Source: a virus. Taken from it: a DNA stretch of 24,953 bases. The stretch is from the IMG/VR virus record IMGVR_UViG_3300009720_000014; one strand, 5' to 3'. The translations under genes and the position numbers were made by a program. Shown piece by piece: positions 4,607 through 11,023 of the stretch. The notes under the pieces are model-generated. The model was given only the letters and a program-made list of their open reading frames with translations, was not told the DNA's origin and made no database searches. Position 1 is the stretch's first letter; each line of letters begins with the position of its first letter.

Positions 4607-4869
4607 ATGCTACTACTTGCTGAAATTATTCTTACCATTTTTGCCTGGAGAAAAGGTTATAAATGGCTATCTCTTCTTCCTGTTGGTGTAGGACTTATAA
4701 CAGGATTTATACTTGGAGCAGGAATTGCAGCATCCGGGGGGATGTTGTTACTGCAAGAGGTCTTTCCATATTCATTGATCTTTTAGTAATAGTTGCCCTT
4801 GTCGGCATGCTTCTTGCTAAAAAACAGACGAAAGACCTGGAAAAAACAGATTTGACTGAAAATAAATAA
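4607..4869 (+). pseudogene. membrane protein gene split by a frameshift at a G6 run (87 aa if G7)
   Basis: The frame from ATG 4607 (MLLLAEIILTIFAWRKGYKWLSLLPVGVGLITGFILGAGIAASGG) stops at 4786. The hydrophobic continuation DVVTARGLSIFIDLLVIVALVGMLLAKK... lies in the -1 frame right after G6 (4736-4741). Confidence 0.65.
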
Positions 4870-4871: not shown

Positions 4872-4942
4872 TACTGAGAACTGCTGAAAAGCTAGTTATA
4901 GAGTAGGTATGTAAGACGCGGGTTCGAATCCCGCCACCTCCA
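4872..4942 (+). ncRNA. ssrA: two-piece tmRNA, acceptor piece (T-arm plus 3' acceptor strand)
   Basis: T-stem GCGGG 4918-4922 / CCCGC 4930-4934, loop TTCGAAT, acceptor strand CACCTCC 4935-4941, discriminator A4942; full CCA not encoded (followed by CAG). The 5' boundary is estimated. Confidence 0.88.
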
Positions 4943-5128
4943 CAGTCGACGGGCCAGAAATGGAAAAACACGTCACTACTTTAGTTTCCGATTTTCAACT
5001 CTAAAAATCGGTGGTGGAATCCTGACCTCCGTCCAGTTTCTGGAATTACCGGTCAGCCCCGTTCTCTACCTTTGGTAGGGAACCTTCAAAGGCTTTGGTG
5101 ATTGAGCCCGCTAATCAATCATCTTTAT
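4943..5128 (+). other. structured intervening sequence of the permuted tmRNA (186 nt, ~46% GC)
   Basis: Lies between the 3' acceptor end and the 5' GGGGGTG end; contains at least four hairpins and a 14-codon ORF (4960-5004). Confidence 0.75.
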
Positions 5129-5275
5129 GGGGGTGACTTGGCTTTGATTGCATATTGAGGGCAATGATGAACGTCTCAGAACGCGAATAAACGGCGCAAA
5201 TGTTTATGAAATGAAAATGGCTGCTTAAGAAGCACCCATTTACAGGAGACTTGCCGGCAGCCTAAGTGCCGGCTT
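5129..5275 (+). ncRNA. ssrA: two-piece tmRNA, coding piece (5' acceptor strand plus tag reading frame GANVYEMKMAA*)
   Basis: GGGGGTG 5129-5135 pairs with CACCTCC and gives the G3.U70 Ala determinant. TTGCATAT 5148-5155 pairs with GTATGTAA 4907-4914. Resume context ATAAAC|GGC; tag 5193-5228 ends in AA*; the TAA overlaps a short hairpin (TGCTT/AAGCA). The 3' boundary is estimated. Confidence 0.88.
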
Positions 5276-5279
5276 TTTT
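5253..5279 (+). terminator. intrinsic terminator ending the tmRNA transcript
   Basis: GCCGGCA (5253-5259) / TGCCGGC (5267-5273) stem followed by T6. Confidence 0.85.
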
Positions 5280-9610: not shown

Positions 9611-11023
9611 ATGTCTTATACAAGTAGTCTTCCTTATAAGGTGAAAGACATTTCTTTATCTGACTTTGGTCGCAAGGAGATCGAGATAGCAGAGAAAGAA
9701 ATGCCTGGATTAATGTCAATACGAAAAAAATACTCAAACTTAAAACCTCTTAAAGGAGCTCGTATTACTGGCTCCCTTCACATGACTATTCAAACAGCTG
9801 TTTTAATTGAAACATTAGTTGAATTAGGAGCTGAAGTAAGATGGGCCAGCTGCAATATATTTTCAACACAAGATCATGCCGCTGCTGCAATTGCCGCAAA
9901 AGGTATTCCGGTGTTTGCATGGAAAGGGGAAACATTAGAAGAATATTGGTGGTGCACTGCTCAAGCTCTTTGCTTCCCTAATGGCGAAGGACCCAATCTT
10001 ATAGTTGATGATGGCGGAGACGCTACTCTTATGATTCATAAAGGAGTTCAATTTGAATTTGATAAAGGTAGAAAAGTTCTTTCCGGGATGTCTCATGAAG
10101 AACGAGCTCTTTATGAAATGCTTGATGAAATCTATAAAAAAGATACATATTTCTGGTATAATTTATCTAGATTTGTTAAGGGGGTATCTGAAGAAACTAC
10201 CACTGGAGTTCATAGACTTTATCAGATGCTTGAAAAAGGAGAATTGCTTTTTCCTGCAATAAATGTCAATGACTCCGTAACTAAATCAAAATTTGATAAT
10301 CTTTACGGATGCCGAGAATCTCTCGCTGATGGAATAAAAAGAGCTACAGATGTAATGATTGCTGGAAAAGTAGTTGTTGTTTGCGGATATGGTGATGTTG
10401 GAAAAGGATGTGCAAAATCTATGAGAGCTTATGGAGCCAGGGTTATAGTTACTGAAATAGATCCTATCTGCGCTCTTCAAGCAGCTATGGAAGGTTTTGA
10501 AGTTAAAACCATCGAGGATTCTTTAGGAGAGGGAAACATCTACGTAACTACGACAGGAAATAAAGATGTTATTACTTTGGAGCATATGAAAGCCATGAAG
10601 GATCAATCAATTGTATGCAACATCGGGCATTTTGATAATGAAATCCAAGTGGATCGTCTTAATGCAGATCCTAATATTAAAAAAATCAATATTAAACCCC
10701 AAGTTGATAAGTATATTACATCTGAAGTTAAAGAAATTTTTCTTCTTGCGGAAGGACGTTTAGTTAATCTCGGGTGTGCTACAGGCCATCCATCATTTGT
10801 AATGAGTAATTCTTTTACCAATCAAACTTTAGCTCAAATTGAACTTTGGACTAAAAAATATAAAGTGGGGGTTTATCGTCTTCCAAAAGAATTGGACGAG
10901 GAGGTTGCAAGACTTCATTTGGAGCAAATTGGTGTAAAATTGACCAAATTATCTGAAGAACAAGCTGATTATATTGGAGTTCCTATAGAAGGACCATATA
11001 AACCGGATCATTATAGATATTAA
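9611..11023 (+). CDS. ahcY: adenosylhomocysteinase (S-adenosyl-L-homocysteine hydrolase)
   Basis: Canonical motifs [77 protein letters not shown] (NAD binding), GHFDNE and [21 protein letters not shown] are all present. Confidence 0.98.

What the first reader, a model, noticed from the sequence alone, without database searches (positions are those of the whole stretch)
4872..5279. Circularly permuted (two-piece) tmRNA gene in a phage, stripped of downstream pseudoknots
Seen: the tmRNA 3' end (T-arm GCGGG-TTCGAAT-CCCGC, CACCTCC-A4942) lies upstream of its 5' end (GGGGGTG at 5129). The two strands form a 7-bp acceptor stem with the G3.U70 alanine determinant. A second cross-piece helix (TTGCATAT 5148-5155 / GTATGTAA 4907-4914) and a possible third (TCTCAG 5174-5179 / CTGAGA 4874-4879) support the pairing. 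After the resume context ATAAAC|G comes the tag GANVYEMKMAA* (5193-5228), and a terminator follows within ~25 nt, leaving no room for pk2-4. Established: two-piece tmRNAs are classically described from alphaproteobacteria, some cyanobacteria and betaproteobacteria, and jakobid mitochondria; the phage tmRNAs I know are one-piece. Inference: this may be an independent permutation in a phage of Bacteroidota. It would supply its own trans-translation RNA with a non-host-like tag that still ends in AA, possibly to keep ribosome rescue running when host tmRNA/tRNAs are cut by defence systems. I cannot verify novelty.
Basis: partly seen in the sequence, partly recalled or inferred. Interest (0 to 1): 0.85.

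Follow-up and report, generated by a model that had tools for sequence, protein, structure and literature searches.

The report
Two-piece tmRNA gene of a megaphage
A giant phage related to the Lak megaphages carries a ribosome-rescue RNA (tmRNA) gene whose two halves are in swapped order, and it belongs to a previously undescribed phage family of such genes that most likely arose separately from the known bacterial two-piece tmRNAs.

Summary
ARAGORN calls a permuted tmRNA (tag GANVYEMKMAA*), and Rfam tmRNA_permuted scores 57.1 bits against a cut-off of 47.

The window comes from a huge phage whose portal is 41% identical to Lak and LR756500. I found about 35 permuted relatives in viral and metagenome contigs. 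Six contigs, counting the window, show portal followed by permuted tmRNA. None of the five other contigs holds a standard tmRNA.

Related megaphages (Lak A1/B1/C1, LR756500, LR756504, L173) carry one-piece tmRNAs, three with kindred tag ends (..EMRMAA, ..FRMAA). The tRNA-like domain, resume context and tag start (GENxY) resemble class Bacteroidia, not Alphaproteobacteria. The alpha, beta and cyano models all fail their cut-offs. An independent permutation inside the megaphage lineage is therefore the best reading (about 0.7).

- **Caveats:** three relatives have an alpha-like T-loop, and the portal tree does not resolve Lak.
two-piece phage tmRNAs are already published (PMC9004378), but those are alpha-type and marine.
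- **Structure:** no pseudoknot was detected; a helix-plus-hairpin junction sits where PK1 would be.

The scan has noted this family before on other DNA. Function is inferred, not shown.

The parts
4874..4879 (+). Helix 3, 5' strand (CUGAGA), at or near the 5' end of the acceptor piece. It pairs with 5174-5179.
   Evidence: About ten compensatory variants in relatives (UUGAGA/UCUCAA, UUGGGA/UUCCAA, UUAGGA/UCCUAA, UAAAGG/CCUUUA, UAAGAG/CUCUUA, UUAAAAC/GUUUUAA and others). Cognate vs non-cognate duplex energy gives p=1e-8.
4883..4892 (+). Acceptor-piece hairpin (GCU-GAAA-AGC) that branches between helix 3 and P2b.
   Evidence: A hairpin occurs at this place in all 20 aligned relatives. Stems differ and loops are mostly GNRA-like.
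4895..4899 (+). P2b strand (GUUAU), predicted to pair with 5164-5168.
   Evidence: Predicted by RNAalifold with a few compensatory changes. The sequence is too conserved for the cognate test, which gave p=0.53. Tentative.
4906..4914 (+). P2a, 3'-side strand. It pairs with 5148-5156.
   Evidence: 9 bp. All six pairs of its core run (4906-4911 with 5151-5156) vary on both sides. Cognate test p=2.5e-6.
4918..4934 (+). T-arm (5-bp stem with loop UUCGAAU).
   Evidence: ARAGORN and Rfam. No non-canonical cells in 20 sequences, with covariation.
4935..4942 (+). Acceptor-stem 3' strand (CACCUCC) and discriminator A4942. Only C74 of the CCA end is encoded.
   Evidence: The base after A is C in all members; CCA is complete in only one or two distant ones.
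4943..5128 (+). Intervening sequence (186 nt), absent from the mature RNA under the two-piece model. It is modular and hairpin-rich.
   Evidence: IVS length ranges from 16 to 186 nt among relatives, so it is dispensable for tmRNA function. MFE is -57 kcal/mol.
5097..5123 (+). Conserved hairpin at the 3' end of the IVS, 5 nt before the mature 5' end. Its loop may pair with GGCU at 5091-5094 to form a pseudoknot.
   Evidence: Eight compensatory stem variants. Pseudoknot support is weak, p=0.03.
5129..5135 (+). Acceptor-stem 5' strand (GGGGGUG). This is the expected RNase P site.
5136..5147 (+). D-loop analogue (ACUUGGCUUUGA).
   Evidence: UGG(Y)UUUGA is shared with class Bacteroidia tmRNAs.
5148..5156 (+). 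P2a, 5'-side strand.
5164..5168 (+). P2b strand (AUGAU).
   Evidence: Tentative.
5174..5179 (+). Helix 3, 3' strand (UCUCAG), 13 nt before the resume codon.
5193..5228 (+). Tag reading frame GGC..GCU (GANVYEMKMAA) plus the stop UAA.
   Evidence: ARAGORN. The frame is kept in all relatives, and indels come in threes.
5212..5244 (+). P5-like hairpin with the stop codon in its loop.
   Evidence: About 13 bp in the RNAalifold consensus, with some covariation.
5253..5279 (+). Intrinsic terminator, which marks the 3' end of the coding piece.
   Evidence: Terminator scan. The stem covaries.

Best explanation
This is a working ssrA gene of a Lak-related megaphage, in circularly permuted form.

**Proposed mechanism (inferred from what is established for two-piece tmRNAs, PMC3985003).** One precursor is transcribed through 4874-5279. 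Host tRNA-processing enzymes cut it: RNase P at G5129, then 3' trimming after A4942 followed by CCA addition. This releases a roughly 70-nt acceptor piece and a roughly 150-nt coding piece.

Three intermolecular helices hold the two pieces together. They are the acceptor stem, P2a (perhaps extended by P2b), and a third helix just upstream of the resume codon. The third helix and a hairpin on the acceptor piece form a junction where PK1 normally sits. No pseudoknot is present.

Host AlaRS would charge the RNA through G3.U70 and A73. With host SmpB it would enter stalled ribosomes and add A-GANVYEMKMAA to the nascent chain.

**Origin.** The gene descends from the one-piece, Bacteroidia-type tmRNA carried by related megaphages. 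It was permuted within that phage lineage, independently of the alpha-, beta- and cyanobacterial permutations.

**Shown vs inferred.** Shown here: the gene order, the covarying helices, the conserved frame and the affinities. Inferred: the processing, charging and tagging, and the direction of evolution.
For: **Identity.** ARAGORN calls tmRNA*, and RF04321 scores 57.1 bits against a cut-off of 47.

**Selection for function.**
- G3.U70 and discriminator A are kept in 20 of 20 aligned relatives.
- Compensatory changes occur in the acceptor stem, T-arm, P2a, helix 3, the P5 hairpin and the terminator.
- The tag frame is kept, with indels in multiples of three.

**Not an artefact.** About 35 permuted copies occur on independent contigs.

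**Phage context.**
- The window has a T4-type portal, 41% identical to Lak and LR756500.
- Five other contigs show portal followed by permuted tmRNA, with portals 54-88% identical to the window's. They hold no standard tmRNA above cut-off, and this includes a 316-kb contig that is 78% complete.

**Independent origin.**
- Lak-A1, B1 and C1, LR756500 and LR756504 all have one-piece tmRNAs.
- Their tags end like the family's: GNNAEMRMAA, DNFVEMRMAA (read from L173) and Lak DDEIDFRMAA.
- The alpha, beta and cyano models all miss their cut-offs on the family. The nearest relative scores nothing, 24.8 and 19 against cut-offs of 50, 84 and 70.
- True alphaproteobacterial genes score 89-166 bits on RF04321, against 48-66 for the family.
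- Profile scoring of the tRNA-like domain gives the window 28 and 37 bits for the two Bacteroidota profiles, against 3.5 for alpha.
- A weight matrix of the resume context gives the family 6-20 bits for Bacteroidia, against -20 to +2 for alpha.
- The signatures UUUGAC-AGCG, GUUUGGAC and the tag start GENxY are shared with class Bacteroidia.
Against: - No expression, processing, charging or tagging data exist.
- Three relatives (L019, L021, L177) have T-loops GGCAGAA, GGCGGAA and GGCAGUA. This loop type is in all 25 sampled alphaproteobacterial two-piece genes and in none of the 55 Bacteroidota genes.
- L021 scores 49.8 bits on the alpha model, whose cut-off is 50.
- The portal tree leaves Lak unresolved among the family contigs, so the direction one-piece to permuted rests on parsimony and is not shown by a resolved tree.
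- The tRNA-like domain scores no better on class Bacteroidia than on other Bacteroidota.
- No promoter was found just upstream of 4874.
- No SmpB gene was found in the 78%-complete relative, so dependence on host SmpB is assumed.
Confidence: 0.7

Rival explanations
1. The gene is a functional two-piece tmRNA, but it is not an independent permutation. It descends from the alphaproteobacterial two-piece lineage, for example through marine phages. Its tag and tRNA-like domain later converged on, or recombined with, Bacteroidia-type sequences.
For: - The alpha-type T-loop GGCRG(U/A)A and a matching D-loop change occur in L019, L021 and L177.
- L021 scores 49.8 bits on RF01849, just under the cut-off of 50.
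- Both groups have a GNRA-type hairpin followed by CUA/UAU near the 5' end of the acceptor piece.
- L019 and L020 differ almost only inside the tRNA-like domain, so modules are exchanged between phages.
- Alpha-type two-piece genes are known in phages (PMC9004378).
Against: - The window and most relatives have the canonical UUCGAAU T-loop.
- The alpha model finds nothing in the 95%-identical relative, L028 or L020.
- The resume context and tag score -20 to +2 bits on the alpha matrix even in L019 and L177, against +6 to +20 on the Bacteroidia matrix.
- The family lacks the alpha tag start ANDN, the alpha D-loop AYAGGAUCGAC, and PK1 and PK2.
- In alpha genes the 5' hairpin precedes all pairing strands. 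Here helix 3 lies 5' of the hairpin.
- Related megaphages carry one-piece genes with the same tag end.
Confidence: 0.2
2. The RNA is made but does not tag proteins. It would act as a decoy or regulator that titrates SmpB, AlaRS or stalled ribosomes, like the tRNA-like-domain-only RNA of mycobacteriophage DS6A. Its purpose would be to blunt host trans-translation or to sense host state.
For: - DS6A-type RNAs inhibit tmRNA (cited in PMC4131195 and PMC11915505).
- No pseudoknots were detected.
- No phage SmpB was found in the relatives.
- The tag end EM[KR]MAA was not found on any bacterial tmRNA except one alphaproteobacterial MAG, among the genomes of 185,579 species scanned.
Against: - The tag frame, resume context, stop-in-hairpin arrangement and ..MAA end are all conserved, and indels come in threes. 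This is unexpected for a decoy.
- PK1 can be replaced by a hairpin without loss of tagging (Tanner 2006, as cited in PMC3968760).
Confidence: 0.07
3. It is not a gene at all. It could be two fragments of ordinary tmRNA genes, an attachment-site remnant, or an assembly artefact.
For: Phage attachment sites often carry 3' ends of ssrA (PMC4383910).
Against: - The same order of parts occurs on about 35 contigs from many samples, with covarying cross-piece helices.
- No second tmRNA half is present in the window.
- No standard tmRNA occurs in the five family contigs.
Confidence: 0.03

Closest known systems
Alphaproteobacterial two-piece tmRNA (Rfam RF01849; Caulobacter type, Keiler et al. 2000)
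   Same: - Permuted gene order: acceptor piece, intervening sequence, coding piece.
- The acceptor stem and a long interrupted P2 are formed between two RNAs.
- The number of pseudoknots is reduced.
- There is a GNRA-type hairpin near the 5' end of the acceptor piece.
- The T-loop type matches in three relatives, but not in the window.
   Different: - The alpha model fails on the family, with no hit on the 95%-identical relative.
- The T-loop is canonical in the window.
- The D-loop and P2 are Bacteroidia-like.
- The tag is GxNxY..EMKMAA, not ANDN...
- PK1 and PK2 are absent.
- An extra helix 3 lies 5' of the hairpin.
- CCA is not encoded, whereas it is encoded in the sampled alpha genes.
One-piece tmRNAs of related megaphages (Lak-A1/B1/C1, LR756500, LR756504; Rfam RF00023)
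   Same: - The phages belong to the same group, with T4-type portals 31-41% identical.
- In Lak the gene also lies next to the portal gene.
- The tag ends are related (..EMRMAA, ..FRMAA).
- The resume context AAUAAAU|G is similar.
   Different: - Those genes are in standard order and have PK1-4.
- They reach 47-95 bits on RF00023, where the window reaches 27.4.
- Lak also encodes SmpB.
Class Bacteroidia one-piece tmRNA (tags GE[SN]NYALAA)
   Same: - The 5' motif UGGUUUUGAC-AGCG and the 3' motif GUUUGGAC are shared; some relatives have them exactly.
- The resume context uaaac|GGCGAAAAU is shared.
- The tag start GENxY is shared.
- CCA is mostly not encoded.
   Different: - Those genes are one-piece, with four pseudoknots.
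- Their tag ends in A[LM]AA, not EMKMAA.
Two-piece tmRNAs of marine phages (Melnitz, pelagimyophages; PMC9004378)
   Same: A phage-borne, ARAGORN-detectable permuted ssrA gene with a structured element inside the gene.
   Different: - Melnitz's ssrA is placed in the alphaproteobacterial lineage by phylogeny, and 50 of the 53 two-piece phage tmRNAs came from marine or aquatic samples.
- No member of the present family was found by blastn in 50,697 deposited phage records.

Membership tests
tmRNA (ssrA) | tRNA-like domain with a 7-bp acceptor stem and a T-arm | tested here: met
   ARAGORN and Rfam. Both stems covary, with no non-canonical cells in 20 sequences.
tmRNA (ssrA) | Alanine identity elements G3.U70 and discriminator A73 | tested here: met
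   G5131 pairs with U4939, and A4942 is the discriminator. G.U is kept in 20 of 20 relatives.
tmRNA (ssrA) | Tag reading frame without a start codon, ending in hydrophobic ..AA plus a stop | tested here: met
   GANVYEMKMAA* at 5193-5228. The frame is conserved, with indels in threes.
tmRNA (ssrA) | Pseudoknot PK1 upstream of the tag (typical, not universal) | tested here: not met
   No covarying pseudoknot helix was found in an all-against-all column scan of 20 sequences. Helix 3 plus a hairpin occupy the position.
tmRNA (ssrA) | Alanylation, SmpB binding and tagging activity | not testable with these tools
   This needs biochemistry or genetics. No SmpB gene was found in the 78%-complete relative, whereas Lak-A1 has one.
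Permuted (two-piece) tmRNA, Rfam RF04321 | The 3' tRNA-like half lies upstream of the 5' half in one gene, and the score reaches the gathering threshold | tested here: met
   57.1 bits against 47. Relatives score 48-66 bits.
Permuted (two-piece) tmRNA, Rfam RF04321 | The mature RNA consists of two pieces | not testable with these tools
   No transcript data are available. Indirect support: IVS length varies from 16 to 186 nt while the flanks are conserved.
alpha_tmRNA, RF01849 | Score at or above 50 bits; T-loop GGCRGUA; tag starting ANDN | tested here: not met
   There is no hit on the 95%-identical relative G001, and L021 scores 49.8. The window's T-loop is UUCGAAU and its tag starts GANVY.
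beta_tmRNA, RF01850 | Score at or above 84 bits | tested here: not met
   24.8-36.6 bits on relatives.
cyano_tmRNA, RF01851 | Score at or above 70 bits | tested here: not met
   19-45.7 bits on relatives.
Standard tmRNA, RF00023 | Score at or above 47 bits with the parts in standard order | tested here: not met
   27.4 bits, and only the 3' tRNA-like half matches.

The most novel reading that the evidence does not exclude
A further independent origin of two-piece tmRNA, the first inferred to have happened inside a virus lineage (Lak-related megaphages of Bacteroidota). It produced a pseudoknot-free minimal tagging tmRNA in which an intermolecular helix plus a hairpin replace PK1. Its tRNA-like-domain modules are shuffled between phages, possibly by the Seg-like homing endonucleases that flank the gene. 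Some members then convergently acquired the alpha-type T-loop.
Probability: 0.5. Interest if true: 0.7.

Novelty: new variant of a known kind. Interest (0 to 1): 0.6.

Why it matters
Gene permutation of tmRNA has been counted as three bacterial events plus the mitochondrial one. A further event inside a phage lineage would show that the one-piece to two-piece change is easy and recurrent. It would also supply a natural comparison, because sister phages carry one-piece and two-piece genes with related tags.

The family is also a natural minimal design. It has a tagging-competent layout, about 220 nt of mature RNA and no detectable pseudoknot. That bears on what the pseudoknot ring is needed for.

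Finally, current subtyping of permuted tmRNAs into alpha, beta and cyano cannot place these genes. Some "permuted" calls in Bacteroidota bins (Table S2 of PMC11915505) may in fact be megaphage contigs.

Tried and rejected
1. Pairing between the terminator loop AGCC(U)AAGU and the D-loop ACUUGGCU gives 8 bp in the window but has no comparative support. Cognate pairs average -3.7 and non-cognate pairs -3.2 kcal/mol, p=0.18. Rejected.
2. A single-sequence cofold of the two pieces recovers the acceptor stem, T-arm, P5 and terminator, but not P2a or helix 3. The binding gain is within shuffles: -12.5 against -9.3 +/- 3.6.
3. The cognate test is uninformative for P2b (p=0.53), so P2b stays tentative.
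4. No promoter was found. The sigma-70 scan found nothing. The Bacteroidota motifs TTTG..TAnnTTTG and TAnnTTTG occur at chance level, and none lies just upstream of 4874. TACCTTTG at 5067-5074, inside the IVS, is noted but not significant.
5. Known ribozymes or riboswitches in the IVS: nothing near threshold. The best hit is wcaG at 19.8 bits against a cut-off of 42.
6. blastn of the gene against 50,697 phage records found only generic T-arm hits to mycobacteriophage tmRNAs.
7. The genome-collection scan with the tag-end pattern produced 66 hits, but only one was a tmRNA. That one is a genuine alpha two-piece gene with tag ANDNRAPEMKMAA, a chance match of the pattern.
8. The portal tree does not resolve whether Lak is sister to the family or nested among it.
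9. The window's own assembly is not held, so SmpB, tRNAs and a second tmRNA could not be sought in its own genome.
10. Locus L244 comes from an unpublished genome (G045).

Full report
**What is there.** Read on the + strand, the region holds these parts in order:
- a T-arm at 4918-4934;
- the 3' acceptor strand CACCUCC at 4935-4941, with discriminator A4942;
- 186 nt of intervening sequence;
- the 5' acceptor strand GGGGGUG at 5129-5135;
- a D-loop analogue;
- a tag frame at 5193-5228 (GANVYEMKMAA, then a stop);
- a hairpin that holds the stop codon;
- an intrinsic terminator, with its stem at 5253-5273 and a T-run to 5279.

ARAGORN reports one gene in the whole window, a permuted tmRNA with exactly this tag. 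Rfam's tmRNA_permuted model (RF04321) matches 4883-5265 at 57.1 bits against a gathering score of 47. The standard tmRNA model reaches only 27.4 bits, on the 3' half alone.

**The phage.** The window encodes a T4-type portal (PF07230, 194.6 bits). Its best matches among deposited phages are the 462-kb uncultured phage LR756500 and the roughly 540-kb Prevotella Lak megaphages, at 41% identity. Next come the 630-735-kb phages described by Al-Shayeb et al.. The window's own assembly is not held. The nearest record, an 11.9-kb IMG/VR fragment, has the same permuted gene at 95% identity.

**A family, not a singleton.** I searched three collections for the DNA encoding the tag end EM[KR]MAA* and then checked every hit.
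- In IMG/VR, 19 of 21 hits are permuted tmRNAs, with tags such as GENVYEMKMAA, GEQFNEMKMAA, GENSYEMKMAA and GAQFEMKMAA. Of the other two, one is a one-piece tmRNA (L031) and one is a chance hit at the end of a coding sequence.
- The metagenome scan added more members, with tags DKTVYEMKMAA, DNTVYEMKMAA, DENIYEMKMAA and GKNVYEMKMAA.
- A search for an acceptor stem plus a T-arm places the 3' half upstream of the 5' half in about 35 copies, which carry 23 different tRNA-like domains. The intervening sequence ranges from 16 to 186 nt.
- Five longer contigs (66-316 kb; CheckV completeness 16-78%) encode portals 54-88% identical to the window's. In each, the permuted gene lies 0.3-2.8 kb downstream of the portal gene, as in the window.
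- None of the five holds a standard tmRNA above cut-off.

This rules out an assembly artefact or a chance juxtaposition of fragments.

**Structure.** I aligned acceptor pieces and coding pieces of 20 relatives separately and folded them jointly.
- The acceptor stem keeps G3.U70 in 20 of 20 sequences, while positions 4-7 covary.
- The T-arm has no non-canonical cell.
- P2a (4906-4914 with 5148-5156) has compensatory changes at nearly every pair.
- Cognate pieces pair far better than non-cognate ones for helix 3, P2a and the acceptor stem. These p-values ignore relatedness.
- A short P2b (4895-4899 with 5164-5168) is predicted but too conserved to test.
- A hairpin with a mostly GNRA-type loop (4883-4892) branches between helix 3 and P2b.
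- The last tag codons and the stop lie in a hairpin of about 13 bp (5212-5244).
- An all-against-all column scan found no further covarying helix, so no pseudoknot is detectable.

Published two-piece tmRNAs typically keep PK1 and PK2 (PMC3985003). Here the helix 3 plus hairpin junction takes the place of PK1. That is compatible with the report that a stable hairpin can replace PK1 (cited in PMC3968760).

**Where it came from.** Two-piece phage tmRNAs are not new. Buchholz et al. counted 53 among 133 unique phage tmRNAs, nearly all marine or aquatic, and placed the ssrA of phage Melnitz in the alphaproteobacterial lineage (PMC9004378). The question is whether this family belongs to one of the known lineages.

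*Evidence against membership in a known lineage:*
- The alpha, beta and cyano models all miss their cut-offs.
- Sixty sampled alphaproteobacterial genes score 89-166 bits on RF04321, against 48-66 for the family.

*Evidence for descent from megaphage and Bacteroidia one-piece genes:*
- Lak-A1, B1 and C1, LR756500 and LR756504 all carry standard one-piece tmRNAs.
- LR756500 encodes GNNAEMRMAA, a further one-piece metagenome gene (L173) encodes DNFVEMRMAA, and Lak encodes DDEIDFRMAA.
- In 29 class-Bacteroidia genes, the 5' motif GGUUUUGAC-AGCG, the 3' motif GUUUGGAC, the resume context uaaac|GGCGAAAAU and tags GE[SN]NYALAA recur. The family shares them in part or in full.
- Profile scoring of the tRNA-like domain gives the window 28 and 37 bits for the two Bacteroidota profiles, against 3.5 for alpha.
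- A weight matrix of the resume context gives the family +6 to +20 bits for Bacteroidia, against -20 to +2 for alpha.
- The tag end EM[KR]MAA was found on no bacterial tmRNA in one genome each of 185,579 species, apart from one genuine alpha gene that matched the pattern by chance.

So the tag is host-like at its start and megaphage-specific at its end.

**What does not fit.**
- Three relatives (L019, L021, L177) have T-loops GGCAGAA, GGCGGAA and GGCAGUA, with a changed D-loop. This loop type is in all 25 sampled alpha genes and in none of the 55 Bacteroidota genes.
- L021 reaches 49.8 bits on the alpha model.
- L019 and L020 have almost identical flanks but about 20 differences inside the tRNA-like domain. 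That pattern points to module exchange rather than gradual change.
- Whether the alpha-like loop is convergent or imported is unresolved.
- The portal tree leaves Lak in a polytomy with the family contigs.

I therefore put the independent origin at about 0.7 and an alpha contribution at about 0.2.

**How it most likely works.** By analogy with established two-piece tmRNAs, a single precursor is cut by RNase P at G5129. It is trimmed after A4942, and CCA is then added, because only C74 is encoded. Most Bacteroidia genes I read also lack an encoded CCA.
- The 16-nt intervening sequences in some relatives leave no room for a second promoter.
- No promoter was found next to 4874, so the precursor may begin further upstream, within or before the small ORF that ends at 4869.
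- No SmpB gene was found in the 78%-complete relative, whereas Lak-A1 has one. Host SmpB is assumed.

None of these steps is shown by data.

**Side observations.**
- In many relatives a Seg-like GIY-YIG/NUMOD3 gene starts 20 nt after the terminator. It is truncated in the nearest relative and absent from the window, which explains the roughly 820-bp indel.
- The long intervening sequences end in a covarying hairpin 5 nt before the mature 5' end, possibly a pseudoknot.

**Verdict.** This is a real, selectively maintained, circularly permuted tmRNA gene of a Lak-related megaphage. Standard tools can annotate it, and it is a member of the known kind "two-piece tmRNA". It belongs, however, to a family that fits none of the described lineages and most likely represents a separate permutation event within phages. 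Earlier first-stage notes of this scan recorded the same family on other DNA.

Noticed in passing
L022:2344-2844 (- strand); L029:8111-8353 (- strand); absent after window 5279: In many relatives a Seg-like GIY-YIG/NUMOD3 homing-endonuclease ORF starts 20 nt after the tmRNA terminator. It is cut down to 80 aa in the nearest relative and missing from the window, which accounts for a roughly 820-bp indel.
   Followed up: partly
window 5091-5123 (inside the IVS): A hairpin (5097-5105 with 5115-5123) lies 5 nt upstream of the mature 5' end and has eight compensatory variants in relatives. The start of its loop can pair with GGCU at 5091-5094 to form an H-type pseudoknot, with weak statistics (p=0.03). 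The 45-nt IVS type (L019, L021, L156) has a different compact pseudoknot-like element followed by a U-run. No Rfam family matches.
   Followed up: partly
L019, L021, L177 (relatives): These three have an alpha-type T-loop (GGCAGAA, GGCGGAA, GGCAGUA) with a changed D-loop, in otherwise Bacteroidia-like tRNA-like domains. L019 and L020 differ almost only within that domain, which suggests that modules are exchanged between phages.
   Followed up: partly
window 9611-11023 (+): A full-length S-adenosyl-L-homocysteine hydrolase gene (PF05221, 502 bits) lies a few kb from the portal gene of a megaphage.
   Followed up: no
L021:1399-2139 (- strand); also upstream of the tmRNA in L020 and L039: A 246-aa ORF ends at the very start of the acceptor piece. 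Its conserved C-terminal coding stretch (..IIKIGKRY) survives as a non-coding remnant in L019 and L032. It has no Pfam match, and its sequence pattern looks endonuclease-like to the eye only.
   Followed up: partly
window 4900-4906 and 5156-5163: A strongly conserved purine-rich internal loop (AGAGUAG opposite UGAGGGCA) lies between P2a and P2b. Its role is unknown.
   Followed up: no
L005, L006, L007 (Lak portal genes): tblastn matches to the Lak portal genes contain 7-10 in-frame stops under table 11, as expected for their alternative genetic code. The portals of the permuted-tmRNA family have none.
   Followed up: no
L030:3941-3999: A 59-nt tRNA-like element (RF00005, 33 bits) sits directly upstream of the acceptor piece of a distant permuted family member.
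   Followed up: no
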